Shown: in pieces, positions 4,315 to 22,284 of the stretch
How positions within the stretch are numbered: the first letter of the stretch is position 1
Layout: each line of letters opens with the position of its first letter
Assembly (NCBI GenBank): GCA_963773585.1
Contig: CAVZBR010000001.1
Location: forward strand, 366,298-430,297
From: an uncultured Gammaproteobacteria bacterium
GTDB taxonomy: Bacteria; Pseudomonadota; Gammaproteobacteria; JASBUN01
Length of the DNA stretch: 64,000 nt
Direction of reading: 5' to 3'
The notes under the pieces: model-generated
The model's input: the letters and a program-made list of their open reading frames with translations, nothing else
Database searches by the model: none
What the model was told of the DNA's origin: nothing
Translations under genes and position numbers: made by a program

Positions 4315-4571
4315 CGCAAGTTCCCCCTCATCAGGTGCCGATTGGTATCGGGCCACTGCCGCCGGACGACGTCCGGCCACCGAACAGCGGCGTTCTGCCC
4401 GACATATCGGCAATTTCCATATTGACTTGAGCGAAACCATGGGGTAGAGCCGCAGCGAGCGGGAACCCAACCATGAGTATTTTCTTATATGCAGCAATGC
4501 TGTTTCGATCTGCTTGCCAGACGACAGTGCGTGCAGCACTATCGAACGCGGTCCGGCAGCGGAGATCACCC

Positions 4572-5000: not shown

Positions 5001-5035
5001 TCGATCGACATACTTTGCGCTAGCGACGTCCGCCG

Positions 5036-5720
5036 CTACGGCGTAAAGGCGATCCCACGCCGCCCACCTGCGTTTGAGCAATGCTTCTGGTATCCGGTCT
5101 TGGCAATCGAGACGATACCGAGCAATGCCGGCGCGCCAAGTTCGCGCGCTACGCGCAGTTCGGCCGAGATCCACCAGTAACCTCTCCCCGGGGACCTGGA
5201 GCCGGGCGCGCATAGCAGGATGTCTAAGCCGGGACATTGCGGTGACCCATTCCGGTTTAATGGTCTTGCCTCCGCGAACCTCCCACCAGACCAACAATAA
5301 ACCCATTGAATCCAAGCGCATCGACCCACTACGTGCCGCGTCACTAATTTCCCTGAGGCAACCACCTTTACACGCTCGCGCAATCCATATTCGCACAGCT
5401 TGTTCACCAGTAACGGAAAGCTCTCGCGCAAGGGCAAGCCCATATCAGCGACCAGCGGCATAGGGGCGGCGCCGGTGCCGCGGTCGGCACCATCTACGGT
5501 GGCGAAATCCGGGACGGATTCGACGCCGTGCTGGGACCTGATTGCGAGAAAGGCATCCAGTCAGCCGTATGCCACAGCGCGATGGAAGTGTCTTCTACAT
5601 AGATACTTGCGACCAGCGTCCGAAACGGCCCACGGGCTCTTTGTCGCCCGCAGATAGGTAAAAATACCTGGTCGAATAGAACACGTGCCAGTCCGAGATC
5701 CAATCTCCAGCTCTCCAAAT
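5036..5720 (-). pseudogene. remnant of FMN-binding glutamate-synthase-family (GltB domain 2-like) gene, frameshifted and truncated
   Basis: ORF 5036..5461 translates to ..GLPLRESFPLLVNKLCEYGLRERVKVVASGKLVTRHVV.., matching the conserved ..GLPwElGLaEthqtLvenGLRdRVrLrvDGGlkTGrDVv.. block of GltB-like proteins. The upstream motif (reverse complement of 5461-5500 gives DGADRGTGA, cf. GHDGGTGAS) is in a different frame. The downstream CHTNNCPVG region is unrecognisable. Confidence 0.5.
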
Positions 5721-5721
5721 C

Positions 5722-5816
5722 ACGTGTTAACGCGTATTTACGGTTTTATGCAGCAAGAATAGCGTTAAGGGCGAAATCAATTTGACGTTAGTCAGGCGTG
5801 TATTCAGAACGCGTTA
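5722..5816. promoter_or_regulatory. cluster of repeated ACGCGTTA-like motifs / imperfect palindrome upstream of the alkB-like gene
   Basis: acgtgttaacgcgta (5722-5736, palindromic around gttaac), gcgtta (5762-5767), acgtta (5785-5790) and acgcgtta (5809-5816) all fall within 100 bp upstream of the alkB-like start. Confidence 0.3.
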
Positions 5817-5881
5817 TGTCAGAGACCCGTTAGGGCGACTCGAAGCGCTATTCAACATTTGTACGGCTGGAGGTGATCGAC

Positions 5882-7036
5882 ATGAAGAAGTTTCTAGTCA
5901 ACGCGCGGTACTGGTTCGCGCCAATCCTGATCCTTGCATCGATGGTCGGCGTATTGGTAGGCGGCATGTTTTCGTGGTATGGGGTGCTGTTACTTGGCGT
6001 CGGTATCGTGATCGACACATTGCTCCGTTTTCAGACACCCGGGGCCGGTTACGACGATAACGGCGAAACCATGGGTATACCGTGGCTGCAGAATAGCGTC
6101 ATGTACTCGATGCTCGGTGTATTTGTGCTGCTGCAGGTGTCTCTGGCCTGGCGCATTTACCAATATGTCAACGGCGTGCCGATCAGCCAAGGGTTTGACC
6201 ACATGCTGTTCGGCATCCTGCCTTATCAGAACGGAATTTCAGGACTGAACCTGATCGGTGCCACTATATCGACCGGGATCTTCGCCGGTATCGGCATCAT
6301 CTATGGTCATGAACTGGCTCATACCAAAGGCGTTACTTTTGTCATCTCCCGGTGGATGATGGCGCTAAGCGGAAAAGCGCATTTCAGCTACGCGCACGTA
6401 TACAACCACCATCTTGAGCTTGGCCATGAGGACGATCCGGCAACGTCGCCTCGTGGTCGCAGCCTCTGGCAGCACTACCCGCTGGCGGGCATCGGCCAAT
6501 CGCGTTTCCTGTACCGCATGGAAAAGCAACGCCTCGAACGTCGCGGAAAGCCTTTCCTGACTTGGGAAAACCGCTGGCTGCGCGGATATGCCATGAGTTT
6601 GCCGACGCTGTTTTTGTTCTGGTATGCCGGAGCGTGGGTCGGAATCGGATGTCTTGCCATCGTCTGGTTTATCTCCAACTTCGAACTCGAAGCGCTCAAC
6701 TACATGGAGCACTACGGTTTGATCCGGGAAAAAGGTCAGCCCATCGACTACCGGCATTCCTGGGACAATTCCACGGCGTTTACAAGCTGGTTCTTCATCG
6801 AAATCGGTCGTCAGGCGGATCATCACGACCGTGGCGAAACCCACTTTTGGGAATTGGACGAAGTAGGTGCGCCCAACGTCGGTTGGGGCTACTTCACACT
6901 GTTCGCCGTGGCGCTGATGCCGCCGCTTTACCACGCCTACTACAAGAAGGAACTGGCGAGATGGGACGAACAATTTGCATCGGAAGGTGAGCGCCAGATC
7001 GCGGAACGCATCAATCGTCAGGTCGGTTACGCGTAA
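5882..7036 (+). CDS. alkB: AlkB-family integral-membrane di-iron alkane 1-monooxygenase / hydrocarbon hydroxylase
   Basis: ATG 5882 (alternative GTG 5873) with GGAGGTG RBS. Multiple TM helices. Histidine boxes HELAH, HVYNHHLELGHEDDPATSPRG, NYMEHYGL and RQADHH match the AlkB boxes (HELGHK, EHNRGHH..TPEDPATS, NYIEHYGL, LQRHSDHH). Confidence 0.85.
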   Translation: MKKFLVNARYWFAPILILASMVGVLVGGMFSWYGVLLLGVGIVIDTLLRFQTPGAGYDDNGETMGIPWLQNSVMYSMLGVFVLLQVSLAWRIYQYVNGVPISQGFDHMLFGILPYQNGISGLNLIGATISTGIFAGIGIIYGHELAHTKGVTFVISRWMMALSGKAHFSYAHVYNHHLELGHEDDPATSPRGRSLWQHYPLAGIGQSRFLYRMEKQRLERRGKPFLTWENRWLRGYAMSLPTLFLFWYAGAWVGIGCLAIVWFISNFELEALNYMEHYGLIREKGQPIDYRHSWDNSTAFTSWFFIEIGRQADHHDRGETHFWELDEVGAPNVGWGYFTLFAVALMPPLYHAYYKKELARWDEQFASEGERQIAERINRQVGYA

Positions 7037-7137
7037 ACGATCTTGTGTCGTGTGAGTGTACGCAAAGAGGGCGCCCCCTCGGGGAGGGGGCGGCGTTACC
7101 CGGATAGTCAAAGTCTACCCAAAGGAAGCATAAAACA

Positions 7138-7500
7138 ATGAACGAACAGACTCTTTACGAAAGGCTTGGTGGTTCGAAAGGCATTGCCGCAATAACGGAA
7201 GATATATGGTCGAATCATACCCAGAATCCGCTGGTCAGTAACCGATACGTGAATTCAGATCCGGAGAATGTCAAGCGATTGGTGCGTGAGATGTTTTGTG
7301 CGGGTACCGGCGGTACAGAGACATATACCGGCAAAGACATGCTGAGCGCACATACCGGAATGAATATCAACGATCAGGAGTTCAACGCAGTAATCGACGA
7401 TGTTTTAAAAGCGTTGAAATTGAACGATATCGGCAAGCGGGAAAGCGATGAGGTCCTGGCCATCCTGTGGTCGATGAAAGGCGAAATCGTTGGAGTTTGA
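7138..7500 (+). CDS. group-I truncated hemoglobin (trHbN-like)
   Basis: 120 aa beginning MNEQTLYERLGGSKGIAAITEDIWSNH, the typical trHb N-terminus. Length matches 2/2 hemoglobins. AAAGGAAGC RBS region upstream. Confidence 0.75.
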   Translation: MNEQTLYERLGGSKGIAAITEDIWSNHTQNPLVSNRYVNSDPENVKRLVREMFCAGTGGTETYTGKDMLSAHTGMNINDQEFNAVIDDVLKALKLNDIGKRESDEVLAILWSMKGEIVGV

Positions 7501-7543
7501 GAGTATTTGAGTCATCAGCCGATCTAGTGAAGGAGAAAAGGCT

Positions 7544-7726
7544 ATGAAAGTCACTTGGGATGAGAAGGTCTGTATCCATGCCGGGAAGTGTGTGGAAGGA
7601 AGTCCGGAAGTATTCAAAATTGAAAACGGAAAATTCGCGATCCATTTGGACGCCGGTGACGAGAATCAAGTTCGCTCCACGGTAGCGGCCTGTCCATCTG
7701 GTGCGTTGCAGATCCAAGAGCACTGA
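7544..7726 (+). CDS. small mono-cluster ferredoxin (divergent 4Fe-4S/3Fe-4S, Fer4_19-like)
   Basis: 60 aa. Cys at KVCIHAGKC and AACPSG (three Cys). AAGGAGAAAAGGCT RBS. Positioned between the monooxygenase and its reductase. Confidence 0.6.
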   Translation: MKVTWDEKVCIHAGKCVEGSPEVFKIENGKFAIHLDAGDENQVRSTVAACPSGALQIQEH

Positions 7727-7829
7727 ACAGCGCAATGTTCGGAACGTATTAAAGAACGGGTGCAAGCCGGTTTTCGAGCGAAAACAAGCCGGCGATGTAA
7801 CCAGCGAGATCTTGATCGAGGAGAACAGC

Positions 7830-8516
7830 ATGTTAGGCGATCGCTTGCAGAACAAAATGAAACTATACGGCAACCCGGCATGCCTGAATACAGCGAAGTG
7901 CTTGTTCACGGCTGCTGAAAAGGGCGTTGATATTGAGTCCCATTACGTGGGGCCAGACGGTCAGGGGGACGCAGCAGAAGCCGCGGTACTTTCGCCGCAC
8001 GGATCTCTTCCGGTACTCAGAGACGTGGACTTCGTTGTCTATGGTACCAATGCAATCATGTCGTATCTCGATGACAAAGGCTTCGGTCCTTCGCTGATTC
8101 CTCGGAACGCGACGGTGCGTACCGTCATGTATCAGTGGATTCACATCGCGTCTGAGTTGGCACAACCCGACGTCGCAGCCCTTATCAGTGGTGGCGGCAA
8201 TACCGATCTCGTTTCACATTGGTTCAGCGCGCTCAATGCGCACCTCGAGTCTAAGACCAAGGACGTCGCGCTGCGCGGAGACTATATCTGCGGCGCTTTC
8301 AGCCTCGCCGACATTCATTGGGCTGCCCTTGCGCAAGGTTGCGTACTTGCCGGCGCCGTCGACATCTTGAACTCGCAAGCGCAGGTGAAGAATTGGTGGC
8401 GTTTGATCAAAGAACATCCGAGTACGAGCAAAGAGAAAATCACGGCCTATGACATATTGCCAACTGCTAATGACATAAAGGGAAATAATCTTAGAGGCAT
8501 ACAGATAAACGCCTGA
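7830..8516 (+). CDS. glutathione S-transferase-like protein (paralog 1 of 3)
   Basis: GAGGAG RBS then ATG 7830. Thioredoxin-like N-domain (MKLYGNPACLNTAKCLFTAAEKGVDIE.., ..GSLPVLRDVDFVVYGTNAIMSYL) plus a helical C-domain. Paralogous to 9959..10672 and 10732..11523. Confidence 0.75.
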   Translation: MLGDRLQNKMKLYGNPACLNTAKCLFTAAEKGVDIESHYVGPDGQGDAAEAAVLSPHGSLPVLRDVDFVVYGTNAIMSYLDDKGFGPSLIPRNATVRTVMYQWIHIASELAQPDVAALISGGGNTDLVSHWFSALNAHLESKTKDVALRGDYICGAFSLADIHWAALAQGCVLAGAVDILNSQAQVKNWWRLIKEHPSTSKEKITAYDILPTANDIKGNNLRGIQINA

Positions 8517-8559
8517 AGTGTGCAATCGGCCCAGGCCGACCGACAGGAGTGATCGCCGG

Positions 8560-9645
8560 ATGTTCGGAGTATTCAAAAAGACCAAGCAGGCCTGGGCCGC
8601 GGAGGTTACTCCTTCCGGCAAGTCGATCACGGTGAAGGCGGGACAAAATCTGCTGAAGGCCGCATTGGACGCCGGGCTGCGGTGGCCCCACGACTGCCGA
8701 GTCGGCAGCTGCGGAACGTGCCGTTGCAAACTGAAGCAGGGGAAGGTGAAAGAGCTGTCTGACTTCGCTTATGTCCTGTCCCAGGAAGACCTGCAGTCGG
8801 GGATGATCCTTGCTTGTCAGTCTGCTTTGCGCAGCGATGTTTCGGTGGAAGTCGAGTTGCTGGAAGAAACGGCGCAAACCGTCAGCGTCACCTCGCACAA
8901 AGCCGTCATAGAGAGGGTAAACCCATTGACCCACGATATTGTCGAGTTGGTGATCAAGGCCGCTGACCAGTTTCCCCGTACGGCTGTAGCCGGACAATAC
9001 GCAGAACTGGAGATCGACGGTATCGCTGCGCCGAGGTCCTATTCGTTTGCCAAGGCCCCGGAGAACGAGTCCGATCACGAGATCACATTTTTCGTGCGTC
9101 GGGTTCCAGGCGGGGAGTGTACGGAGTGGTTGTTCAGCGAGGACCGGGCTGGAGAGCCCGTGACGGTCACCGGCCCCTACGGATCGTTCTGGTTGCGCCC
9201 TGGGAATTCACCGATCGTTTGCGTCGCAGGTGGCAGCGGCATGGCGCCCATCAAAGCGCTATTGGAAAGTGCGCTCAACAACGGCGCAAACAGGGACGTA
9301 TTGTTTCTGTTCGGGGCGCGCACGCAAAAGGATTTGTACTGTCTGGACGTCATGGACAGGCTACGTCAGGGTTGGAAGGGGAACTTCGAATTTGTGCCAG
9401 TTCTTTCCGAAGAGCCGGAAGACTCCGATTGGACAGGCGCTACGGGCTTTGTCACACACTATTTGGAAAGCGCATATATCGAGACGGGCAAGGTGGACGT
9501 GAAGAAAAGTCAGGGTTATTTGTGCGGGCCGCCGGCAATGGTTGACGCGGGCCAAGCTCTTCTGAGTTCCGCCGGAATGGCGAAGGAAGATATCCACTTC
9601 GACAAGTTTCTGGACGCGGCGACGATGCCCGCAGGCAGGAAATAG
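8560..9645 (+). CDS. XylA-type electron-transfer component: N-terminal plant-type [2Fe-2S] ferredoxin fused to FAD/NAD(P)H ferredoxin reductase
   Basis: ORF 8518..9645. ATG 8560 after CAGGAGTGA. CRVGSCGTCRC...LACQ 2Fe-2S motif, RSYSFA flavin-binding motif and GGSGMAPI NAD-binding motif. Confidence 0.85.
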   Translation: MFGVFKKTKQAWAAEVTPSGKSITVKAGQNLLKAALDAGLRWPHDCRVGSCGTCRCKLKQGKVKELSDFAYVLSQEDLQSGMILACQSALRSDVSVEVELLEETAQTVSVTSHKAVIERVNPLTHDIVELVIKAADQFPRTAVAGQYAELEIDGIAAPRSYSFAKAPENESDHEITFFVRRVPGGECTEWLFSEDRAGEPVTVTGPYGSFWLRPGNSPIVCVAGGSGMAPIKALLESALNNGANRDVLFLFGARTQKDLYCLDVMDRLRQGWKGNFEFVPVLSEEPEDSDWTGATGFVTHYLESAYIETGKVDVKKSQGYLCGPPAMVDAGQALLSSAGMAKEDIHFDKFLDAATMPAGRK

Positions 9646-9729
9646 AGTTTTCAGCAAGACGCGGCATTTGGAGTCTGAGGTCCCGGATGTATTCGGACTA
9701 GCAACGATTGTTTATTAGGAGATCAGAAC

Positions 9730-9939
9730 ATGGCGTCACTCAAGGCAATTTTTCTAATGATCGTATTTTCAGCGGCGGTCGCGTTCGGCATGAATGCGCT
9801 GGGACTTACGGAACACTTCCGCGAACCGGCCTATTCGTTGGCGGGCGCAGTTGTATTGCTCGTCGCGCTTATCGTGAACGTATGGCTCTATCTGAAAATT
9901 GCGGGGGAAACACCGTTTAAATGGTTCAAGGAAGACTAG
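9730..9939 (+). CDS. small two-TM membrane protein
   Basis: 69 aa. TTAGGAGATCAGAAC-ATG RBS. Two hydrophobic helices. Confidence 0.5.
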   Translation: MASLKAIFLMIVFSAAVAFGMNALGLTEHFREPAYSLAGAVVLLVALIVNVWLYLKIAGETPFKWFKED

Positions 9940-9958
9940 CCGACAGAGGAGCAGAGAC

Positions 9959-10672
9959 ATGGGGCTGTTTTCGCGAAAGAAGAAGTCTGGGCGCGGGATT
10001 CATCTGCGGGGGTTCCCCGGCGATTTGGATACATGCAAGTGCTTGTATCTGGCAGCCGAAAAGGGCATTCAAATGGACGTGGAGCTGGTGGACGTGACCG
10101 ACCGGGAACACGAAAATGCGGCGTTCCGCGCCTTGTCCCCCTTCGGGAAAGTTCCCTGCCTGGGTGAAGGCGGTTTAGTGATCTCCGGCGCCGCCGCCAT
10201 CCTGCCCTATCTCGACATCAAGGGTAGTGGTCCATCGCTAACCCCAAAAAAAGCCGCCCGCCTCGGAGACCAAAATTATTGGATTGAAGTCGGGCAATAC
10301 CGCGTGCTACCGCACGTTCACAATCTGGTCGACGAATACGTGCTGAAGCCAATGGTCTCATCGAGCCATACCCCTGATCCGGCGCAGATCGAACAGGCCG
10401 TGAACGCAGTAGAGCCTGTATTCGCGGTTGCAGACGAGTTCTTGGAAGGCAAAAACTATTTTGCGAGCGAATTTTCTTTTGCGGAAATTCACTGGGCGCC
10501 TTACCTGCACTTTTGGGTAATGACGGGCCAGGAGCAACGACTAGACGCGCATCCGAATCTCAAGCGTTGGTTCAGTCGCGTCCAAGCACGACAAAGTCAT
10601 GGCCGAAATACCTATGCGGTGTTACCGAGTCTGAAGCAGATTCAGGGTAAGGAGCTCAGGTATGTGGCCTGA
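9959..10672 (+). CDS. glutathione S-transferase-like protein (paralog 2 of 3)
   Basis: GAGGAGCAGAGAC-ATG. ..LRGFPGDLDTCKCLYLAAEKGIQMDVELVDV.. aligns with paralog 1. Conserved C-terminal ..FAEIHWAPYLHF.. block. Confidence 0.75.
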   Translation: MGLFSRKKKSGRGIHLRGFPGDLDTCKCLYLAAEKGIQMDVELVDVTDREHENAAFRALSPFGKVPCLGEGGLVISGAAAILPYLDIKGSGPSLTPKKAARLGDQNYWIEVGQYRVLPHVHNLVDEYVLKPMVSSSHTPDPAQIEQAVNAVEPVFAVADEFLEGKNYFASEFSFAEIHWAPYLHFWVMTGQEQRLDAHPNLKRWFSRVQARQSHGRNTYAVLPSLKQIQGKELRYVA

Positions 10673-10731
10673 CTTGAGCGGCCAACGGAAGACAGGCGCT
10701 TGCTTGGCGCCTGAAAATAGGGGAACTGACA

Positions 10732-11523
10732 ATGAACGAATTATTTGCGTTTGGTCGGTCTGCAGACGATGGTGCAAAGGACGCCCGCTATGGTTCAGCA
10801 GGAGATTTGAAAAAGACACAGTACGTTCTGCAGCTTTTGGGATTTCCGGCGCACGCGGATACATTGAAATGCCTAATCACCGCAGTCGAAATGGGCATGG
10901 AGACGGACGTCGGCGTGCTGGACATTCTCGAGGGGCAGGACGAAAGCAATGAATACCTGGCAGTGTCCCCGCTGGGTCTCGTGCCAGTGTTAAAAGAGGC
11001 CGAGTATTGCGTGGCGGGCGAAGCGGGAATCATGAGCTACATCGAGGCGCGAGGCCTGGGGAAACGGTTGCCACCGAAAAATGCCGCGCTGCTGGCGGAA
11101 CAGAATTATTGGTCCGATATTGCGTGCACGGAGGTGGGCCCGCACATCAAGGCACTGGTGAAAGAACATATCCTGGCGCCGATGGATGATTCCGTGTACA
11201 TGGTCAAATCGGCGGACATCGAGGCTTCGAGGAAGGCGCTCGCGGCGCCACTGGATGCGTTGAACGCTCAATTGGCAAACAATACGTTCATTATCGGCAA
11301 CTATTCCTTTGCGGATATTCATTGGACCGCTTACGTACATTTGCTGTACGAAGCTGGCGAGGGAGACCTTATAGACCAGCGTCCGAACGTCAAGGCATGG
11401 TTCGATCGGATCCGGACGCACAAGAGTTTCTCGGGGCAGAATATAGTTGCGTACGAGCTCTTGCCGAAGCTCGCGGATATCAAGAAAAAGAAACTTAATT
11501 CAATCGTAATAGACGATTATTGA
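10732..11523 (+). CDS. glutathione S-transferase-like protein (paralog 3 of 3, with 30-aa N-terminal extension)
   Basis: ..LLGFPAHADTLKCLITAVEMGMETDVGVLDI.. and ..FADIHWTAYVHL.. align with the other two paralogs. Confidence 0.7.
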   Translation: MNELFAFGRSADDGAKDARYGSAGDLKKTQYVLQLLGFPAHADTLKCLITAVEMGMETDVGVLDILEGQDESNEYLAVSPLGLVPVLKEAEYCVAGEAGIMSYIEARGLGKRLPPKNAALLAEQNYWSDIACTEVGPHIKALVKEHILAPMDDSVYMVKSADIEASRKALAAPLDALNAQLANNTFIIGNYSFADIHWTAYVHLLYEAGEGDLIDQRPNVKAWFDRIRTHKSFSGQNIVAYELLPKLADIKKKKLNSIVIDDY

Positions 11524-11957
11524 GAAGTGTGCTGGCAGGGAGAAGCGTGATGTTCTGGCGATTGAGTCGATCGGACAGCGAACTGGAAAGGGCAATGTCG
11601 ACATTGAACCCTTTTGTCTCAGACGCCTTGAGCGGGATAGACACACGGGAGCTTGAGCGGGGCGGCGCGCGAATGATGGCGGAGTGCTACGTGTACGGCG
11701 CCGTACGTTACCTGGCATCGTACGACGGCATGAGGGCCACCAATACTGGAATGTTGCTGGAACAAATGCTGGCAACACATTTCAGGGCGGATCACGAAGA
11801 AATCGGCCGCTGTCGGGCGCTATTTTCTGAAGTTGGAGCGAAAGACAGGGAGCAGGTATTCATGACAGAGGGAGCCAGCGCCATACGCCGTTGGCTGGTC
11901 AACGATGACCGGACGGTCGGAAGCCATCTAAAACAGTTGCTTGAGTCGGTGCACTGA
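11520..11957 (+). CDS. hypothetical protein (start uncertain)
   Basis: 145-aa ORF immediately after GST paralog 3. No recognisable domain. Could start at internal ATG 11550. Confidence 0.3.
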   Translation: MRSVLAGRSVMFWRLSRSDSELERAMSTLNPFVSDALSGIDTRELERGGARMMAECYVYGAVRYLASYDGMRATNTGMLLEQMLATHFRADHEEIGRCRALFSEVGAKDREQVFMTEGASAIRRWLVNDDRTVGSHLKQLLESVH

Positions 11958-12057
11958 TAGGCGCGCGGAAAGCGGTTTTGAGCGCAGTTGTCGCTTCAGG
12001 ATGACCAGAGTCGGATCGGCGGACAAACAGAGAGATCAAACGTAGGAGAGTATTAAC

Positions 12058-12171
12058 ATGTCTCAGAGTGGCGGAAACAATGCAATGGTGTTTGTAGGTG
12101 CGATAGCAGTTGGGGTCGCGATTATCGCGGTGACGCTGTATCTATCGGGTGCATTGAACGCGTTGTTTTAA
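12058..12171 (+). CDS. 37-aa hydrophobic micropeptide
   Basis: Not in the ORF track (<60 aa). GTAGGAGAGTATTAAC-ATG RBS. MSQSGGNNAMVFVGAIAVGVAIIAVTLYLSGALNALF, a single TM helix. Confidence 0.35.
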   Translation: MSQSGGNNAMVFVGAIAVGVAIIAVTLYLSGALNALF

Positions 12172-12933
12172 TCGGGTGAACATGATGCAAGAAGTCTAGG
12201 TGATCAGTTTACGGTAGATTTCACCGATGCGAAATGGAGCTTCTCGACCTGGTCTACTACGACAAAGTTATCGTGCCCGAACATATGGGGAAGGTAGTTC
12301 GGCGCATGGTCGTCGATCGTGATGCAAAACGGATGGATCCCCGCCTGGCGCGTCTACATGAGCGCCTTGCGCGTATAGGCACCTTGATAGCCGCTTTCGT
12401 CGTCAGACCGGCCGTCTGACAAGACGACCAATAAACGCTGTACGCGCTTCTCCAGCCAAGAGCTTCGCGCTGTGGTGGCGTATGGCGACTCCCATGCGCG
12501 TGAAGTGCTGCGGCATTGGATTCAGCGGTCACGGTTTGTTCTGTTAAGCGGCACCATCGCTCGCGATAGCATTGGCGCGCCTGATCCCATTCGTCATATG
12601 TAAACTCCGTGTCTGCTGAAGGCGCATCCGGCGTTGCAGGTGTAGGGAGTTCCTCGTCGCGGCTTCCGTGGGCCGCGGGCTCGGGTATCTCCTGAAAATC
12701 CGGAGAACGCATCGCTGTGTCGTGCTGGAGAAGTTTGTCTTGGTTTAATGCATTCAATACGACTGCGGGCTCCAGTGCGCCTTGATATTCGGCGGGAGGG
12801 GGATCGTTGTCCTCAGGATACACGCGTGCCAGCCAGCGCAGACTATCGCTGCTACGTCAAGTAGACGGACTGTTGCTGCCGCGCACCATGAGCGCGCAAA
12901 ACCGCTGTCGGCACTGTTTCATGGCCCGTAACG

Positions 12934-13740
12934 TTATGCGAAATACAGGTTCAGCCAGTACGCGCCCCAACCGAGCAAACCCAGGCCGCTGGCGAACCGA
13001 ACCCGGCGTGAAGCGGGCAAAATCTTTTCCATCAGTACGAATCCGGTGATCAGCGCCACCCAAAGCATATTCATGACACCGACGGCAAACAATATCAGCA
13101 TCAGCGCCCAACAGCAGCCCACGCAATAAATGCCGTGCCGAATCCCCATTAAGAGGGCTCCACGGGCCCCGTCTCTCCATTCCGTCATTAGAAAGCCCAA
13201 TGGACTGCGGCATTTCGTGAGGCAGGCGTCTTTCAGGGGCGTCCACTGGTAAAGCCCCGCCCCGATAAGGACCAAACCGCTCAACAGGTAACTGGCACTG
13301 TTCATCATAGGATTGAGCAAGCCCACTGTATGCAACGGCCACTGAGCGATGGCCGCCAAGACGCTAAATCCCGTCCACGCGATCAAATAACCGGCAACAA
13401 ATATGAAAGTCGGTGTATATGGCTGTTCGCGACGGCGCAGACTTCGGCTTACGGTCGCGAACATCGTCACCATCGGTAGAGACGACGGCGTCATCATGGC
13501 GACCATCATGATCGACCACATCACCAAAAGCATGAAAAAGTCGGTGGGTGACCAAATTGAGGAAGCAGACGGAGGCATCCACATCTCAAGCTGTCCCATG
13601 TTGCCCATGGCCCCCGCCATGTGGAACATGTACCCCCAACCCGCCAGTGTGATGGCAGCCAAACCGCCGCCGACGATCAAATGGTCTCGAGCGCTGAGCC
13701 GTGTGTGCACCGCATCCGGAAATGGAATGGATTTTGACAT
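12934..13740 (-). CDS. DUF2182-family predicted metal-binding integral membrane protein
   Basis: Internal ATG MSKSIPFP at 13740 with GAGAGGG RBS. Polytopic membrane protein rich in Met, His and Cys. Paired with DUF1326 as in other genomes. Confidence 0.6.
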   Translation of the reverse strand: MSKSIPFPDAVHTRLSARDHLIVGGGLAAITLAGWGYMFHMAGAMGNMGQLEMWMPPSASSIWSPTDFFMLLVMWSIMMVAMMTPSSLPMVTMFATVSRSLRRREQPYTPTFIFVAGYLIAWTGFSVLAAIAQWPLHTVGLLNPMMNSASYLLSGLVLIGAGLYQWTPLKDACLTKCRSPLGFLMTEWRDGARGALLMGIRHGIYCVGCCWALMLILFAVGVMNMLWVALITGFVLMEKILPASRRVRFASGLGLLGWGAYWLNLYFA

Positions 13741-14042
13741 AGCCCTCTCTCGTTGGCAGTAACGGTGCGCTCTATCAAAACATTCTGCACGTGGCGTTGC
13801 GCTAGGGAACGATGATGCGCCAGGCGCGCGGCACAGAAAACACGTAGTTTTGCGTATATATGAGGGAAATCCCAATGCCTAGTGTGAGAAGCGCGGATTG
13901 AGTTCCCGTTCGGGGGGTTCAATGCGTAGCGCGACACTTGATGATTAGTACCAGCGGGCCAGTTTGTAGTGAACGAGCATTGTCCTGGCGCGTTTGATGC
14001 TGTCATTTCACCACTCGAATACCAGAACGAGAGGACAAAGCG

Positions 14043-14651
14043 ATGGTGAATGAATCGGATTGGAGCCTTAAGGGTGACTATTTTGAGTCGTGCAACTGCG
14101 ACTTGGTATGTCCTTGTATTTTTTTACGCCCACCCACAGAGGGATTTTGCGAGGCATTCGTAGGGTGGCACGTGGAAAAGGGTCATATGGGCGATGTAAG
14201 CCTGGACGGTCTGAACGTAGCTGCTTGGCTGCACTCGCCGGGCGCGCTGACCGATGGCGGTTGGCGCCTAGCGTTGTACATAGATGAACGGGCTGACGAG
14301 GCACAGACTGCGGCGTTCACAAAGATATTCGGCGGGGAAGTGGGTGGACATCCCGCGGTTTTGGCGAGCTTGGTCGGCGAGCTGATGGGTGTTAAGAATG
14401 TGCCGATCGAATTCAAGAAAGAGAACGGCACACACGTCCTCGATATTCCGGGAATCGGCAAGAACGTGACTGAGGCGGTGGCGGGAGAAGATGGTGGAGC
14501 CGTCATGGTTTCCAACCATCCGCTGGCCGTTTCTCCGGGGAATCCGGTTCGGATTTCGGCTTCGACGCAGGCGCAATTCAAAGATTACGATGTGACTTGG
14601 ACGCAACACGACAAAGTGGGTTTGTCGGCACCATTTTCCTATCACCCGTGA
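14043..14651 (+). CDS. DUF1326-family protein
   Basis: 202 aa with N-terminal YFESCNCDLVCPC cysteine motif characteristic of DUF1326. Divergent from the DUF2182 gene. Confidence 0.65.
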   Translation: MVNESDWSLKGDYFESCNCDLVCPCIFLRPPTEGFCEAFVGWHVEKGHMGDVSLDGLNVAAWLHSPGALTDGGWRLALYIDERADEAQTAAFTKIFGGEVGGHPAVLASLVGELMGVKNVPIEFKKENGTHVLDIPGIGKNVTEAVAGEDGGAVMVSNHPLAVSPGNPVRISASTQAQFKDYDVTWTQHDKVGLSAPFSYHP

Positions 14652-14827: not shown

Positions 14828-15214
14828 CTAGGCGCCGGAGCAAAAGTTCAGATATTGTTGGGCGTCCATGAGTCCAGCGAAATCGGCGGCGTCGTCCGGT
14901 TGTATTCGAAGCAGCCAACCCGCCTTATACGGGTCGCCATTGATAAGTTCAGGCCTATTCAGAAGTTCAGTATTGGTCGCGACTATCATGCCGCCCAACG
15001 GTAAAACCAATTCACTTACCACTTTGGCGGATTCGATAAGGCCGAACGTTTGACTCTTGGCGACAGTGTCACCGGGATCGGGAATTTCGACAAACAGAAT
15101 GTCACCGAGACTCTCCTGGGCAAAATTCGTGATGGCGATCAGATAGGTGCCTTCCTTGTCTTTTCGACACCCCAGGTGAGATTGGTTGCACAGGTAGCCA
15201 CCAGGGCATTGCAT
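14828..15214 (-). CDS. GcvH-family lipoyl-carrier protein (orphan, no gcvT/gcvP nearby)
   Basis: ..YLIAITNFAQESLGDILFVEIPDPGDTV..LIESAKVVSELVLPLGG..PELINGDPYKAGWL.. matches the GcvH fold, including the lipoyl-lysine in the ESAK motif. Start at MQCPGGY. Confidence 0.7.
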   Translation of the reverse strand: MQCPGGYLCNQSHLGCRKDKEGTYLIAITNFAQESLGDILFVEIPDPGDTVAKSQTFGLIESAKVVSELVLPLGGMIVATNTELLNRPELINGDPYKAGWLLRIQPDDAADFAGLMDAQQYLNFCSGA

Positions 15215-15356
15215 TGAATAGATCCTCACTTCGATAAAGGCGAATGGAGCAATTTCGCCGCCAATACGTATGGCCACGGAAATCCGATATGGGCGACGGG
15301 ACTAAACGGTGGGGCGGCGGCCTGGAATAATGACCAGGCCGCCGCGTTCACGTTGA

Positions 15357-16589: not shown

Positions 16590-16675
16590 CTCTTATCCTA
16601 TCTTGTTGCGGGGCCGAAAAGAGTGGCTCCCTGATCGTCCAGGTGGCGGCAAAAACCACCAGCCGACTGCGAGTG

Positions 16676-17230
16676 TCAGAGTTTTTCGCCGTTGAGCGTG
16701 ACGTTTCCGGTGACGGTCACTGCGCGGCAGATGGTATCCAGCACCGGACAGTGCGATTCGACGGTCTCAGCGAGTTTGCGAATGGTTTCGGCATCTGCCG
16801 GGCTGTCGATGAAAGTCTCATAACGAACGTTGTCGTATCCGGCAGGAATATTTTCGTCCATAGCGAACAAACCACGCAGGTCCAGATATCCTTTGACAGC
16901 GACTTTTACGCTGGTGAGCTCGACTCCCATTACTGACGCGTAAGCGGAGTACATGATCTCCTGGCACGTGCCGAGGGCGGCAAGAACGAGCTCGACCGGG
17001 TTCATACCGGCGTCTTCGCCGCCCAGCTCCGGCGGCTCGTCGATTGTCAGGAGCGGGAATTCGCGCACTTTCGCCGTGCAACGCACCCCGCTTTGGAGTT
17101 CGGTTTCCGAGCGGAATACCAGCTTGGCCGCCTGGGGGTTGGCCTGGATTCGTCCCATTGTCTTGGTCAGGGCGGCTTTGACACGATCGTTCGCGGAAGT
17201 TTGTGTTGTGCTCTCTGGCGTAGCGCTCAT
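16676..17230 (-). CDS. OsmC/Ohr-family peroxiredoxin-like protein
   Basis: 184 aa with ..GGEDAGMNPVELVLAALGTCQ.. and ..HCPV.. motifs of OsmC. Confidence 0.75.
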   Translation of the reverse strand: MSATPESTTQTSANDRVKAALTKTMGRIQANPQAAKLVFRSETELQSGVRCTAKVREFPLLTIDEPPELGGEDAGMNPVELVLAALGTCQEIMYSAYASVMGVELTSVKVAVKGYLDLRGLFAMDENIPAGYDNVRYETFIDSPADAETIRKLAETVESHCPVLDTICRAVTVTGNVTLNGEKL

Positions 17231-19975: not shown

Positions 19976-19977
19976 GA

Positions 19978-22275: not shown

Positions 22276-22284
22276 GGAGGCGCG

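What the first reader, a model, noticed from the sequence alone, without database searches (positions are those of the whole stretch)
5650..12250. Lower-G+C island: AlkB-type monooxygenase wired to a ferredoxin/XylA-type reductase, a truncated hemoglobin and three GST paralogs
Nine same-strand, tightly spaced genes between about 5.7 and 12.2 kb, in this order: AlkB-family di-iron hydroxylase; group-I truncated hemoglobin; 3-Cys mini-ferredoxin; GST-like 1; [2Fe-2S]Fd-FNR fusion reductase; 69-aa membrane peptide; GST-like 2; GST-like 3; hypothetical plus 37-aa micropeptide. Third-codon positions are visibly more A/T-rich here than in flanking genes (MCP, uvrA-like). The left border is a decayed GltB-like pseudogene. 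Both observations indicate horizontal acquisition. I know of no characterised alkB operon with this composition. Canonical AlkB uses rubredoxin plus rubredoxin reductase and has no GSTs or globin. A parallel exists in isoprene and alkene monooxygenase clusters, where GSTs (IsoI/IsoJ-type) conjugate the epoxide product. That suggests this module oxidises an alkene or halo-alkane and detoxifies a reactive product through glutathione.
Basis: partly seen in the sequence, partly recalled or inferred. Interest (0 to 1): 0.8.

Follow-up and report, generated by a model that had tools for sequence, protein, structure and literature searches.

The report
AlkB-like monooxygenase operon linked to dimethylsulfide
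This is a real ten-gene operon for a membrane iron monooxygenase with its own electron-supply proteins; it belongs to a widespread, unstudied enzyme family whose relatives sit beside, and are switched on with, the genes that bacteria use to eat the climate-active gas dimethylsulfide, so it is a candidate for that pathway's missing first enzyme and probably not an oil- or alkene-degrading system.

Summary
Ten tightly spaced same-strand genes (5882-12171) encode an AlkB-fold di-iron hydroxylase, a TrHbN-2 truncated globin, a Fer4_19 ferredoxin, a [2Fe-2S]-FNR reductase, three paralogous GST-fold proteins, two membrane peptides and one unknown protein. GC3 is low, but equally low out to about 34 kb. 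Decayed genes flank both sides.

The alkene/haloalkane-plus-GST-detoxification reading is not supported. Across 80 genomes the conserved core is hydroxylase-globin-reductase. The GSTs are lineage-specific add-ons: GST1 has a conserved Cys, which is not the conjugating type, and GST2 and GST3 lack a catalytic residue.

Hosts are sulfur oxidisers and C1/DMS degraders (Thiobacillus, Hyphomicrobium, Methylophaga, Methylobacillus). The methanethiol oxidase operon lies within 10 kb in 8 loci from three proteobacterial classes. In published transcriptomes the matching genes are induced 30-130-fold on DMS (M. thiooxydans) and co-induced with mtoX (H. denitrificans).

Best reading (confidence about 0.5): a new clade of XylMA/AlkB-type monooxygenase acting on DMS or a related methyl-sulfur volatile. 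It is a candidate for the unidentified dmoA-independent DMS-to-methanethiol enzyme. No biochemical test exists, and the window holds no mtoX.

The parts
5720..5738 (+). Conserved operator-like element TCACGTGTTAACGCGTATT, about 150 bp upstream of the hydroxylase start codon. Collinearity with related genomes begins exactly here.
   Evidence: It is invariant in the five-genome upstream alignment. A yCACGT-N6-(A/C)ACGT element lies 139 to 196 bp upstream (plus further sites at 326, 354 and 731 bp) in 13 related loci, including Thiobacillus. The homology break at 5720 is shown. Other matches in the window are not above chance. A role as the response-regulator binding site is inferred.
5882..7036 (+). 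A: membrane di-iron hydroxylase of the AlkB/XylM superfamily (384 aa; an alternative GTG start lies at 5873).
   Evidence: PF00487. Matches PDB AlkB 8f6t/8sbb at E 5e-26 and 3e-24. The AF2 model (pLDDT 77.6, pTM 0.83) gives TM 0.66-0.70 to FtAlkB. Eight of the nine AlkB His ligands are invariant; the first His of box 3 is an invariant Gln314 (RQADHH). Identity is 26% to XylM and 28-31% to AlkB. No NCBIfam hit.
7138..7500 (+). B: group 1 truncated haemoglobin of the TrHbN-2 clade (120 aa).
   Evidence: PF01152. E 1e-34 to Shewanella benthica HbN structures 7tt9/8ugz. That protein does not bind O2 reversibly (PMC11904497). B follows A directly in 39 of 68 loci.
7544..7726 (+). C: small Fer4_19 iron-sulfur ferredoxin (60 aa; Cys10, Cys16, Cys50, plus His12).
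   Evidence: PF06902, E 4e-16. Present in 19 of 68 loci. A copy also sits between mauG and the sensor module in Thiobacillus.
7857..8516 (+). D: GST-fold protein 1, Cys-type (219 aa).
   Evidence: GST_N domains. The catalytic-position Cys (YGNPAC) is conserved in 31 of 34 orthologs, and the cis-Pro in 34 of 34. Best PDB match is 4kdu, E 2e-10.
8560..9645 (+). E: NAD(P)H-dependent reductase with an N-terminal plant-type [2Fe-2S] ferredoxin fused to an FNR module (361 aa).
   Evidence: Fer2+FAD_binding_6+NAD_binding_1. BenC/AntC/MmoC-like in NCBIfam, below cut-offs. PDB 5ogx, 1krh and 4wqm at E 6e-48 to 3e-32. Present in 48 of 68 loci.
9730..9939 (+). F: conserved 69-aa peptide with two transmembrane helices.
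   Evidence: Two hydrophobic segments. tblastn homologs lie directly after the reductase in 37 of 68 loci at 26-91% identity. No family hit.
9959..10672 (+). G: GST-fold paralog 2 (237 aa) with no canonical catalytic residue.
   Evidence: GST_N+GST_C. The catalytic position is H/D/N in 15 orthologs. It is 31-36% identical to D and H.
10732..11523 (+). H: GST-fold paralog 3 (263 aa) with no canonical catalytic residue.
   Evidence: GST_C+GST_N. The catalytic position is D/H/Q in 16 orthologs.
11595..11957 (+). I: conserved hypothetical protein (120 aa; an alternative start lies at 11550), predicted all-helical.
   Evidence: Conserved in 14 loci at 35-72% identity. No Pfam, NCBIfam or PDB hit. 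The single-sequence AF2 model has pLDDT 47 and is unusable.
12058..12171 (+). J: conserved 37-aa single-transmembrane micropeptide.
   Evidence: One hydrophobic segment. tblastn homologs occur in 13 loci at 47-91% identity.
5036..5509 (-). Left border: decayed fragment of a GltB-like (glutamate synthase FMN domain) gene.
   Evidence: Pfam Glu_synthase at E 3.7e-10, covering only 61 residues (profile positions 230-290 of 369). The frame is lost afterwards.
12199..12847 (-). Right border: fragments of a VWA-domain gene that is intact (653 aa) in relatives.
   Evidence: tblastn of L001 16351-18312 matches only residues 287-397 and 546-653, in different frames. The intact protein carries a VWA domain.
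12934..14651 (.). Divergent pair: PpoB2/DUF2182 metal-chaperone-like membrane protein (12934-13875, -) and DUF1326 (14043-14651, +). The pair recurs with the cluster.
   Evidence: Pfam. Collinear in L001 and L002. It lies inside the cluster in L085 and is also present in L013 and L046.
14828..18535 (.). Recurrent accessory genes: GcvH-type lipoyl carrier (14828-15277, -), FadL/TodX-type outer-membrane channel (15357-16589, -), OsmC-type peroxidase (16676-17230, -) and an AhpC/TSA redoxin (17819-18535, +).
   Evidence: Pfam and NCBIfam. TodX is near A in 20 loci, OsmC in 12 and GcvH in 13. A TodX-type gene and a dihydrolipoamide dehydrogenase are DMS-induced in M. thiooxydans.
18761..22941 (+). 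Putative sensor/regulator module: ACAD-fold flavoprotein (18761-19975), PAS histidine kinase (19978-22275) and LuxR-type response regulator (22285-22941).
   Evidence: Pfam. The trio lies within 10 kb of A in 35 of 80 loci, usually directly upstream, and sits between the mtoX operon and A-B-E in Thiobacillus. The ACAD protein is 57-71% identical where A is about 54%. The regulatory role is inferred.

Best explanation
The region is one operon for a multicomponent membrane di-iron monooxygenase. It belongs to a distinct, widespread and uncharacterised clade of the AlkB/XylM superfamily. The mechanism below is inferred from the families involved. The reductase E takes electrons from NAD(P)H through FAD to its [2Fe-2S] centre and passes them to the di-iron site of hydroxylase A, either directly or via the small ferredoxin C and/or the haem protein B. 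Hydroxylase A activates O2 and hydroxylates a small hydrophobic substrate that enters through a FadL/TodX-type channel. The most likely physiological substrate is dimethylsulfide or a closely related methylated sulfur volatile. Hydroxylation of a methyl C-H next to sulfur gives a hemithioacetal that falls apart to methanethiol plus formaldehyde. That is the 'DMS monooxygenase' reaction, whose gene is unknown in Methylophaga, Thiobacillus, Methylophilaceae and H. denitrificans. The TrHbN-2 globin is an integral partner of unknown role (electron relay, O2 or peroxide handling, or thiol/sulfide binding). The Cys-type GST1 and the degenerate GST2 and GST3, with I and J, form a lineage-specific extension. 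It most plausibly handles thiol or disulfide products, or formaldehyde-glutathione chemistry, and is unlikely to conjugate epoxides. Expression is probably controlled by the ACAD-PAS kinase-LuxR module through the conserved upstream element. Shown here: the gene content, fold, ligand motifs, synteny and linkage to mtoX. Taken from published data: co-induction on DMS or with mtoX. Inferred: the substrate, the reaction and the accessory-protein roles.
For: (1) Enzyme type. AlkB fold (TM 0.66-0.70), with conserved HxxxH, HxxxHH, NYxEHYGL and xxxHH ligands, and a XylA-type reductase.
(2) Conserved core. The A-B-E core is conserved across alpha-, beta- and gammaproteobacteria.
(3) Hosts. They are sulfur oxidisers and DMS/C1 degraders: Thiobacillus thioparus and T. 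denitrificans, Hyphomicrobium, Methylophaga sulfidovorans, Methylobacillus, Chromatiales and sponge symbionts. No classic alkane degrader is among the 80.
(4) Physical linkage. mtoX-SCO1-mauG (checked by Pfam) lies within 10 kb of A in 8 of 80 loci, in at least four different arrangements and three classes. In Thiobacillus the order is mtoX operon, sensor module, A-B-E.
(5) Expression in M. thiooxydans on DMS versus methanol (PMC6548844 Table S6): 'FA desaturase domain protein' 1359 vs 10, 'oxidoreductase NAD-binding' 618 vs 12, glbN 601 vs 21, 'aromatic hydrocarbon degradation membrane protein' 1469 vs 18, mtoX 17350 vs 37.
(6) Expression in H. denitrificans. Hden_0732 (FA desaturase), 0733 (group 1 trHb) and 0734 (2Fe-2S protein) are co-induced with mtoX Hden_0743 (PMC12423496 supplement). 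The gene order matches locus L072.
(7) The gap in the field. dmoA is absent from DMS-degrading Methylophaga, Methylophilaceae and Thiobacillus populations. The gene was still 'unidentified' in 2022, and a June 2026 review lists no AlkB-type enzyme.
(8) Sulfur context. Sulfur-handling neighbours (PDO-like MBL, DUF442-PNDR, SulP, Cys/Met PLP enzyme) flank the cluster in a sea-ice MAG.
(9) Chemistry (own knowledge). AlkB-type enzymes hydroxylate methyl groups, O-demethylate methyl ethers and oxidise thioethers.
Against: There is no biochemical or genetic test of any family member. The window (64 kb) has no mtoX. Orthology of the M. thiooxydans DMS-induced genes rests on matching annotations and on the cluster in sister Methylophaga genomes, because the sequences could not be retrieved. 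Boden et al. 2010, as cited in PMC6548844, found no NADH-dependent DMS monooxygenase activity in M. thiooxydans extracts and proposed a methyltransferase. In H. denitrificans the induction was by thiosulfate, so it may reflect a general sulfur or oxidative-stress response. Most loci (72 of 80) show no mtoX within 10 kb. Nine loci have a solitary hydroxylase gene, and nine sponge-symbiont-type loci lack B, C and E nearby. The roles proposed for the globin and the GSTs are speculative.
Confidence: 0.5

Rival explanations
1. One reading: the monooxygenase epoxidises an alkene or oxidises a haloalkane, and the three GSTs conjugate the reactive product with glutathione, as IsoI/IsoJ do in isoprene degradation.
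For: A monooxygenase and GST-fold genes share one operon. A FadL/TodX-type channel for hydrophobic compounds lies nearby. Hyphomicrobium sp. GJ21, which carries the core, is known as a dichloromethane degrader (own knowledge; locus).
Against: GSTs are missing from the commonest form of the cluster (B-E only in 21 loci). GST1 has Cys at the catalytic position, which is the thiol-transferase/deglutathionylating type. GST2 and GST3 have no conserved nucleophile, and none of the three keeps the Glu-Ser motif. The hydroxylase is a membrane AlkB-type enzyme, not a soluble di-iron alkene monooxygenase. No IsoG/IsoH-type, epoxide hydrolase or dehalogenase genes appear in the window's annotated flanks. 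The hosts and neighbours point to sulfur and C1 metabolism.
Confidence: 0.08
2. A membrane-lipid desaturase or hydroxylase used for membrane repair or remodelling under oxidative or sulfide stress. The globin and peroxidases detoxify ROS or NO. This is the interpretation given for the M. thiooxydans gene by Kroeber and Schaefer.
For: The Pfam family is FA_desaturase. The third His box is QxxHH, as in front-end lipid desaturases (own knowledge). The cluster is co-located with peroxiredoxin, OsmC, AhpC and AzoR-type genes. It is induced in conditions where MtoX makes H2O2. SbHbN chemistry hints at peroxide handling.
Against: Over its full length the protein matches AlkB and XylM hydroxylases in sequence (NYxEHYGL motif; E 1e-26) and in fold (TM 0.7), and these were the only significant PDB matches. 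It has a dedicated reductase and an adjacent outer-membrane channel for small hydrophobic molecules, which a lipid-modifying enzyme would not need. It is physically linked to a catabolic operon (mtoX) in several lineages. Two or three copies occur in small marine genomes, which suggests a catabolic role.
Confidence: 0.15
3. An ordinary alkane (or alkyl-aromatic) hydroxylase for hydrocarbon catabolism, simply wired to a different reductase. This is the reading implied by the database labels 'alkane 1-monooxygenase' and K00496.
For: AlkB fold and ligand motifs. JGI and UniRef labels. A TodX/FadL channel. A Zn-ADH-family gene is nearby in M. sulfidovorans. Methylophaga was reported to take up hexadecane carbon in SIP studies (own knowledge).
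Against: Identity to AlkB or XylM is only 26-31%, and no NCBIfam model is reached. There is no rubredoxin or rubredoxin reductase. No aldehyde dehydrogenase, acyl-CoA synthetase or beta-oxidation set accompanies the core. The hosts are obligate methylotrophs and autotrophic sulfur oxidisers. In M. thiooxydans induction was by DMS with no hydrocarbon present.
Confidence: 0.1
4. An organosulfur monooxygenase with a different reaction: S-oxygenation of DMS to DMSO, or oxidation of methanethiol or dimethyl disulfide, with the Cys-type GST resolving sulfenic or mixed-disulfide products.
For: The same sulfur-linked context as the best explanation. AlkB-type enzymes can sulfoxidise thioethers (own knowledge). 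A Cys-GST fits thiol-disulfide chemistry.
Against: Linkage and co-induction with methanethiol oxidase fit production of methanethiol better than production of DMSO. No DMSO or DMSO2-processing genes (sfn/msu type) were seen next to the cluster in the loci examined.
Confidence: 0.12

Closest known systems
Xylene monooxygenase XylM/XylA (TOL plasmid) and relatives (CymA, NtnM)
   Same: A membrane AlkB-superfamily di-iron hydroxylase is served by a single reductase carrying an N-terminal plant-type [2Fe-2S] ferredoxin fused to an FNR module. No rubredoxin is involved. The full-length alignment of A to XylM covers 97-98% of the protein.
   Different: Identity is only about 26%. The third His box is QxxHH. 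A truncated globin is inserted between the hydroxylase and reductase genes, and there is an additional Fer4_19 ferredoxin and a 69-aa membrane peptide. No xylB/xylC-type dehydrogenases are present. The hosts and gene context are sulfur/C1, not aromatic.
Alkane hydroxylase AlkB with rubredoxin AlkG and rubredoxin reductase AlkT (structures 8f6t, 8sbb)
   Same: The same fold (TM 0.66-0.70). Eight of the nine His ligands and the NYxEHYGL motif are conserved.
   Different: Identity over the catalytic core is 28-31%. The first His of box 3 is invariably Gln. Rubredoxin partners are replaced by the Fd-FNR reductase (plus globin and Fer4_19). No NCBIfam family is reached. The family is not found in classic alkane degraders among the 80 loci.
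DMS monooxygenase DmoAB of Hyphomicrobium sulfonivorans (EC 1.14.13.131)
   Same: The proposed reaction is the same (DMS + O2 + NADH gives methanethiol + formaldehyde), and so is the pathway position upstream of MtoX. This is a functional analogy only.
   Different: DmoA is a soluble FMNH2-dependent luciferase-family enzyme with a flavin reductase. Nothing in this operon is homologous to it. The present system would be a non-homologous, membrane-bound iron enzyme.
Eukaryotic front-end desaturase / cytochrome b5 / NADH-cytochrome b5 reductase chain
   Same: A membrane di-iron enzyme with a QxxHH third box, a small haem protein and an FNR-family NADH reductase (own knowledge of desaturases).
   Different: The haem protein here is a 2-on-2 globin, not cytochrome b5. 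The hydroxylase is AlkB/XylM-like, not a lipid desaturase. The reductase carries its own [2Fe-2S] domain. The resemblance is a lead for the globin's role and is not evidence of membership.
Isoprene monooxygenase cluster with IsoI/IsoJ glutathione transferases
   Same: A monooxygenase and GST-fold genes share one operon.
   Different: The oxygenase there is a soluble six-component di-iron enzyme, and its GSTs are conjugating enzymes accompanied by IsoG/IsoH. Here the GSTs are a Cys-type enzyme plus two degenerate paralogs, and they are dispensable to the family core.
Shewanella benthica TrHbN-2 (SbHbN; PDB 7tt9, 8ugz)
   Same: The globin B is a close homolog (E 1e-34 over 114 residues).
   Different: SbHbN was studied in isolation, and its paper gives no genomic or physiological context. 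Here the globin is embedded in a monooxygenase operon.

Membership tests
AlkB alkane 1-monooxygenase (EC 1.14.15.3) | AlkB fold: a transmembrane helix bundle capped by a cytosolic di-iron domain. | tested here: met
   The AF2 model (pLDDT 77.6, pTM 0.83) matches FtAlkB 8sbb/8f6t at TM 0.66-0.70 over about 380 columns, and these are the only significant PDB hits.
AlkB alkane 1-monooxygenase (EC 1.14.15.3) | Complete histidine ligand set: HxxxH, HxxxHH, HxxHH, plus the His of NYxEHYGL. | tested here: not met
   H146, H150, H175, H179, H180, H280, H317 and H318 are invariant in 78 of 78 sequences. The first His of the third box is an invariant Gln314 (RQADHH against AlkB RHSDHH).
AlkB alkane 1-monooxygenase (EC 1.14.15.3) | Rubredoxin and rubredoxin reductase as electron donors. 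| tested here: not met
   None of the ten operon products has a rubredoxin domain. The donors are a Fer2-FNR fusion and a Fer4_19 ferredoxin.
AlkB alkane 1-monooxygenase (EC 1.14.15.3) | Recognition by a curated family model, or close sequence identity to characterised AlkBs. | tested here: not met
   No NCBIfam family at E <= 0.01. Identity to annotated plasmid alkB genes is 28-31% over 58-69% of the protein.
AlkB alkane 1-monooxygenase (EC 1.14.15.3) | Terminal hydroxylation of n-alkanes. | not testable with these tools
   This needs an enzyme assay.
XylM/XylA-type two-component membrane monooxygenase | Reductase with an N-terminal plant-type [2Fe-2S] domain fused to FAD/NAD(P)H-binding FNR domains. 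| tested here: met
   Fer2 (residues 30-104), FAD_binding_6 and NAD_binding_1. BenC, T4moF and CarAd reductases are the best PDB matches.
XylM/XylA-type two-component membrane monooxygenase | Hydroxylase orthologous to XylM. | tested here: inconclusive
   The full-length alignment shows only 25.7-26.0% identity (E 5e-26). This is homology at superfamily level, in a separate clade.
XylM/XylA-type two-component membrane monooxygenase | Operon partners for benzylic oxidation (xylB/xylC-type alcohol and aldehyde dehydrogenases). | tested here: not met
   None are among the ten operon products or the annotated flanks.
Isoprene/alkene monooxygenase with IsoI/IsoJ GST detoxification | Soluble multicomponent di-iron monooxygenase (SDIMO) as the oxygenase. 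| tested here: not met
   The oxygenase is a membrane AlkB-fold protein. No SDIMO subunits are present in the window's annotated genes.
Isoprene/alkene monooxygenase with IsoI/IsoJ GST detoxification | Conjugating GSTs with a conserved catalytic residue and a glutathione-binding site. | tested here: not met
   GST1 has Cys (31 of 34 orthologs). GST2 has H/D/N and GST3 has D/H/Q at that position. The Glu of the Glu-Ser motif is Gly in all 65 sequences.
DMS monooxygenase DmoAB | Luciferase-family FMNH2-dependent oxygenase with a flavin reductase. | tested here: not met
   No such domain occurs in the operon. Any relation is one of function only.
Group 1 truncated haemoglobin, TrHbN-2 subgroup | 2-on-2 globin domain closely related to a verified TrHbN-2 member. 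| tested here: met
   PF01152. E 1e-34 to SbHbN, which its authors assign to TrHbN-2. The proximal His context (AH) is aligned.
Cytosolic GST superfamily | Thioredoxin-like N-domain with cis-Pro, plus an all-helical C-domain. | tested here: met
   GST_N/GST_C Pfam hits above cut-off for all three proteins. The cis-Pro is conserved in 65 of 65 sequences.
SspA/FzlA-type non-catalytic GST-fold regulators | Score above the curated equivalog cut-off. | tested here: not met
   SspA scores 35-40 bits against a cut-off of 314, and FzlA scores 27-33 against 300. These are weak fold-level matches only.

The most novel reading that the evidence does not exclude
This clade (hydroxylase + TrHbN-2 globin + Fd-FNR reductase) is the long-sought dmoA-independent DMS monooxygenase of Methylophaga, Thiobacillus, Methylophilaceae, Hyphomicrobium denitrificans and abundant uncultured marine and sponge-associated Gammaproteobacteria. 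It would be a membrane di-iron enzyme that cleaves DMS to methanethiol and formaldehyde and that needs a truncated haemoglobin as an obligate redox or ligand-handling partner. A corollary follows: part of the 'alkB' (K00496) signal in ocean metagenomes would report DMS oxidisers, not oil degraders.
Probability: 0.4. Interest if true: 0.88.

Novelty: new variant of a known kind. Interest (0 to 1): 0.72.

Why it matters
DMS is the main biogenic sulfur gas reaching the atmosphere. Yet the enzyme that starts DMS breakdown to methanethiol is genetically unknown in most cultured DMS-degrading methylotrophs and sulfur oxidisers. dmoA is absent from them, and a postulated methyltransferase was never found.

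A concrete, widespread candidate with a defined gene set makes that question directly testable by knock-out in H. denitrificans and by heterologous expression. If confirmed, it would supply a new marker gene for DMS sinks.

It would also give the first physiological role to a TrHbN-2 globin and add a third functional branch to the AlkB/XylM superfamily. It warns, too, that sequences labelled alkane 1-monooxygenase/K00496 in marine and sponge metagenomes may not indicate hydrocarbon degradation.

If the DMS link fails, the finding is still a well-defined, conserved and uncharacterised monooxygenase system with an unusual partner set.

Tried and rejected
(1) Exact-sequence look-ups of the window's own hydroxylase and globin, to get annotated context. 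Neither is on record, so the flanks were annotated by hand.

(2) Direct confirmation that M. thiooxydans MDMS009_226, _61, _199 and _906 are orthologs. The supplementary sequence file is truncated. Cluster-member names and a second homolog search did not name M. thiooxydans. One look-up failed for lack of a slot, and its retry returned a sea-ice MAG. Orthology therefore remains inferred.

(3) Koch and Dahl 2018 (DMS pathway of H. denitrificans) is not held, so what those authors call the 'putative DMS monooxygenase' could not be checked.

(4) The ACAD-fold protein as a DszC/SfnB-type flavin monooxygenase acting on DMS. It was rejected as the primary reading because the protein matches genuine short-chain acyl-CoA dehydrogenases and the Rv1679 family far better (E 1e-41 and 4e-76, against 6e-19 for DszC). 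Its position next to the kinase suggests a sensory or accessory role.

(5) The globin as a simple O2 store. This is disfavoured because the closest solved homolog does not bind O2 reversibly.

(6) Searching the window for more copies of the upstream element to define a regulon. Six matches were found against 3.3 +/- 1.9 expected, which is not significant.

(7) The sigma-70 promoter and terminator scans were uninformative.

(8) The single-sequence structure prediction of protein I gave pLDDT 47 and is unusable. PDB and Pfam searches for I, F and J found nothing.

(9) Recent horizontal acquisition of the 6.6-kb operon alone was rejected, because the operon is collinear with relatives and the low-GC3 zone is about 28 kb.

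(10) The third homolog search and the representative-library search were left unused, because no remaining question justified their cost.

Full report
OBSERVATION. The ORF scan and Pfam/NCBIfam scans confirm ten same-strand genes between 5.88 and 12.17 kb:
- A: FA_desaturase/AlkB-superfamily hydroxylase, 5882-7036.
- B: bacterial globin, 7138-7500.
- C: Fer4_19 ferredoxin, 7544-7726.
- D: GST-fold protein 1, 7857-8516.
- E: Fer2+FAD_binding_6+NAD_binding_1 reductase, 8560-9645.
- F: 69-aa peptide with two transmembrane helices, 9730-9939.
- G: GST-fold protein 2, 9959-10672.
- H: GST-fold protein 3, 10732-11523.
- I: hypothetical protein, 11595-11957.
- J: 37-aa single-transmembrane peptide, 12058-12171.

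Gaps are 19-130 bp, and each start is preceded by a GGAG-type ribosome-binding site. Promoter-like and terminator-like matches inside the region are no more frequent than in shuffled sequence. This is what a single transcription unit would look like, although transcription itself was not tested.

COMPOSITION AND BORDERS. The window averages 59.8% G+C, and 6-16 kb averages 53-56%. Cluster GC3 (mean 0.635) is well below the rest of the window (0.750; p = 7e-6). Genes from 12.9 to 34.3 kb are just as low (0.653; p = 0.38 against the cluster). The anomaly is therefore about 28 kb long, not a 6.6-kb island.

The left border holds a real GltB-like remnant: Pfam Glu_synthase at E 3.7e-10, but only 61 residues of a 369-position profile, after which the frame is lost. 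The stretch 12199-12847 (-) carries two out-of-frame fragments of a 653-aa VWA-domain gene that is intact in related genomes.

Against two related MAG species, the window is collinear from 5720 to about 15.5 kb at 80-86% nucleotide identity, while nothing left of 5720 matches. One relative has kinase genes there and the other has an IS-type transposase. The operon is thus inherited within this lineage, and only its left junction is rearranged. The wide, patchy distribution of the family (below) does imply old lateral transfers between classes.

THE HYDROXYLASE. A matches the two solved AlkB structures at E 5e-26 and 3e-24. An AlphaFold model built from 31 family members (pLDDT 77.6, pTM 0.83) superposes on FtAlkB at TM 0.66-0.70 over its whole length, with no other significant PDB match.

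In an alignment of 79 family members, the ligand histidines of HELAH, HxxxHH, NYMEHYGL and xxDHH are invariant. The first His of the third box (AlkB RHSDHH) is an invariant Gln (RQADHH). From my own knowledge this QxxHH variant occurs in front-end lipid desaturases. I have not seen it described for AlkB or XylM.

A is 26% identical to annotated XylM over 97-98% of its length, and 28-31% identical to annotated AlkBs over the catalytic core. No NCBIfam model is reached. It is therefore a separate clade of the AlkB/XylM superfamily. The reductase has the XylA/BenC architecture, and there is no rubredoxin.

CONSERVATION. The family is large. More than 1,100 clusters at 90% identity score E <= 1e-100, and many come from marine and Tara Oceans data, labelled 'fatty acid desaturase', 'alkane 1-monooxygenase' or K00496.

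Eighty loci from species-representative genomes were fetched and compared with every window protein. Of the 68 loci with at least 3 kb downstream of A:
- E follows in 48, B in 39, F in 37, D in 31 and C in 19.
- G, H, I and J each follow in 13-14.

The commonest pattern is A-B-E alone (21 loci: Thiobacillus, Hyphomicrobium, Methylobacillus, Acidihalobacter, Methylibium and others). A-B-C-D-E-F typifies Methylophaga-like genomes. The full A-J set occurs only in the window and four relatives (two uncultured gammaproteobacteria, Cocleimonas and Thiogranum). Nine loci of sponge-symbiont type carry A-D-F-G-H-I-J without B, C or E nearby.

An ACAD-fold protein, a PAS histidine kinase and a LuxR-type response regulator accompany A in 35 of 80 loci, normally directly upstream. 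In the window the same trio sits at 18761-22941. FadL/TodX-type channels (20 loci), OsmC, GcvH-type lipoyl carriers, AhpC-type redoxins and the PpoB2/DUF1326 pair also recur, and all of them are present in the window between 12.9 and 18.5 kb.

A conserved element, TCACGTGTTAACGCGTATT, lies about 150 bp upstream of A. Related elements occur at a similar distance in gammaproteobacterial relatives and in Thiobacillus. It is a plausible regulator-binding site, which is inferred. Further copies in the window are not above chance.

WHAT THE CONTEXT SAYS. None of the 80 hosts is a classic alkane degrader. They are sulfur oxidisers, methylotrophs and known DMS degraders.

The methanethiol oxidase operon mtoX-SCO1-mauG was verified by Pfam in Hyphomicrobium sp. 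GJ21. It lies within 10 kb of A in 8 loci: four Thiobacillus, a Burkholderiaceae MAG, an uncultured betaproteobacterium, Hyphomicrobium and a Methylophaga MAG. Two further loci have partial hits at their ends. The arrangements differ in at least four ways. In Thiobacillus the order is mtoX operon, Fer4_19, two small proteins, ACAD-kinase-regulator, A-B-E. With one or two mtoX genes per genome, fewer than one such coincidence would be expected among 80 loci; this is my own estimate.

A sea-ice MAG flanks the cluster with a PDO-like metallo-beta-lactamase, a DUF442-disulfide-reductase fusion, a SulP transporter and a Cys/Met PLP enzyme. Methylophaga-type loci add a divergent NorQ/NorD-like CbbQ+VWA pair, a second globin and an NMO-family protein.

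PUBLISHED EXPRESSION DATA. In M. thiooxydans grown on DMS versus methanol (PMC6548844, Table S6), transcripts rose as follows:
- 'fatty acid desaturase domain protein': 10 to 1359.
- 'oxidoreductase, NAD-binding domain': 12 to 618.
- glbN truncated haemoglobin: 21 to 601.
- 'aromatic hydrocarbon degradation membrane protein': 18 to 1469.
- mtoX: 37 to 17350.
- dihydrolipoamide dehydrogenase: 15 to 1007.

The authors read the desaturase as membrane repair and noted that the first enzyme of DMS degradation was missing. These four annotations match A, E, B and TodX of the M. sulfidovorans cluster. I could not retrieve the sequences to prove orthology.

In H. denitrificans, Hden_0732 (fatty acid desaturase), Hden_0733 (group 1 truncated haemoglobin) and Hden_0734 (2Fe-2S protein) rise about four-fold together with mtoX Hden_0743 on thiosulfate exposure. 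The authors say the region includes 'a putative DMS monooxygenase' (PMC12423496). The annotated order Hden_0730-0743 matches locus L072 gene for gene.

DMS-assimilating Methylophilaceae and Thiobacillus populations lack dmoA (PMC4611497). The Methylophaga enzyme was still unidentified in 2022 (PMC9563715). A June 2026 review lists only DmoA, DdhA, DsoB and Tmm as DMS-consuming enzymes (PMC13360808). Full-text searches found no paper linking an AlkB-type enzyme to DMS.

MECHANISM (INFERRED). NAD(P)H reduces FAD and the [2Fe-2S] centre of E. Electrons reach the di-iron site of A directly, as in XylA/XylM, or via C and/or B. A then activates O2.

For DMS, hydroxylation of a methyl C-H next to sulfur gives CH3-S-CH2OH, which decomposes to methanethiol and formaldehyde. 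Methanethiol goes to MtoX where that enzyme is present. The H2O2 from MtoX would explain the OsmC/GcvH/AhpC set. From my own knowledge, AlkB-type enzymes hydroxylate methyl groups, demethylate methyl ethers and oxidise thioethers, so the chemistry is plausible. Sulfoxidation to DMSO is the main chemical alternative.

[quoted passage not shown] That protein does not bind O2 reversibly and reacts with peroxide (PMC11904497). An O2-store role is therefore unlikely. Electron relay (by analogy with cytochrome b5 and QxxHH desaturases), peroxide handling and thiol/sulfide binding all remain possible.

THE GSTs. D, G and H are true paralogs (31-36% identity) and members of the GST fold. D has Cys at the canonical catalytic position in 31 of 34 orthologs. 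G has H/D/N and H has D/H/Q there. All 65 sequences have Gly in place of the Glu of the Glu-Ser glutathione-binding motif. Matches to SspA and FzlA are weak and far below cut-off.

In known GSTs a catalytic Cys goes with thiol transfer or deglutathionylation and not conjugation (own knowledge). Together with their absence from the family core, this removes the basis for the IsoI/IsoJ analogy. What the G-H-I-J extension does in the window's lineage is unknown. Thiol/disulfide or formaldehyde-glutathione chemistry is a guess.

VERDICT. The 'island' is larger than described, and the operon is conserved within its lineage. The alkene/haloalkane-GST model is not supported.

The best-supported reading is a new, widespread variant of the XylMA/AlkB-type monooxygenase with a truncated-globin partner. 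Gene linkage and published expression tie it to DMS/methanethiol catabolism, making it a candidate for the missing DMS monooxygenase (confidence about 0.5).

The main weaknesses are these. There is no experimental test. The window has no mtoX. Orthology to the M. thiooxydans genes is unproven. An older report found no NADH-dependent DMS monooxygenase activity in that organism's extracts. A stress-response role for the cluster remains possible.

Noticed in passing
window 12199-12847 (-): Fragments of a 653-aa VWA-domain gene that is intact in relatives (L001 16351-18312). Only residues 287-397 and 546-653 survive, in different frames. Methylophaga-type loci have a NorD/NorQ-like VWA+CbbQ pair divergent from the hydroxylase, which could be a metal-insertion chaperone that this genome has lost.
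   Followed up: partly
window 5720-5738: The conserved element TCACGTGTTAACGCGTATT upstream of the hydroxylase is shared with distant relatives (CCACGTATTTCCACGT in Thiobacillus). The breakpoint of synteny with related genomes falls exactly at its 5' edge.
   Followed up: partly
window 18761-22941 (+): An ACAD-fold protein (Rv1679-family-like), a PAS histidine kinase and a LuxR-type regulator form a trio found next to the hydroxylase in 35 of 80 loci. The ACAD protein is better conserved (57-71%) than the hydroxylase in the same genomes. An acyl-CoA-dehydrogenase-like protein coupled to a two-component system is unusual and unexplained.
   Followed up: partly
window 14828-18535: A GcvH-type lipoyl carrier, a FadL/TodX channel, OsmC and an AhpC-like redoxin recur with the cluster. 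With the DMS-induced dihydrolipoamide dehydrogenase of M. thiooxydans, this resembles a lipoyl-dependent OsmC/Ohr peroxidase system.
   Followed up: partly
window 12934-14651: A divergent PpoB2 (DUF2182, annotated as copper chaperone) and DUF1326 pair travels with the cluster in at least six genomes, and in L085 it sits inside the cluster. Which metal centre it serves is unknown.
   Followed up: no
window 23410-25413 (+) and 27507-29471 (-): Two paralogous GAF-sigma54-HTH (AcoR-like) activators flank an ATP-grasp gene (26051-27268). Similar activators lie upstream of the ACAD-kinase-regulator module in L014, L017, L062 and L065.
   Followed up: no
window 43964-49702 (-): The 'uvrA-like' flank gene is a single 1912-aa ORF, about twice the length of a normal UvrA, with a UvrA-type N-terminus. 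It may be a duplicated or fused UvrA paralog.
   Followed up: no
L021/L035/L037 (OX044353.1); L018/L025 (OZ243040.1); L086/L087: Small-genome (1.6-2.8 Mb) uncultured marine Gammaproteobacteria carry two or three copies of the hydroxylase. In one genome two copies are identical in protein sequence, one solitary and one with C-D-E-F. Multiple copies suggest a central catabolic role.
   Followed up: no
L004-L012 (sponge-associated and related MAGs): The cluster variant A-D-F-G-H-I-J plus TodX lacks the globin, ferredoxin and reductase nearby, so the hydroxylase there must draw electrons from elsewhere.
   Followed up: no
L043-L046, L050, L051 (Rhodobiaceae, Porticoccaceae): In these loci the match to the reductase covers only about 330 nt, corresponding to the [2Fe-2S] ferredoxin domain. 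They therefore appear to have A, globin, a stand-alone ferredoxin and F, with no FNR module adjacent.
   Followed up: no
protein hits P0262, P0196, P0255: Family members in Tara Oceans and other marine data carry the alkB orthology label K00496 or 'alkane 1-monooxygenase'. Surveys that count alkB by KO may include this non-canonical clade.
   Followed up: no
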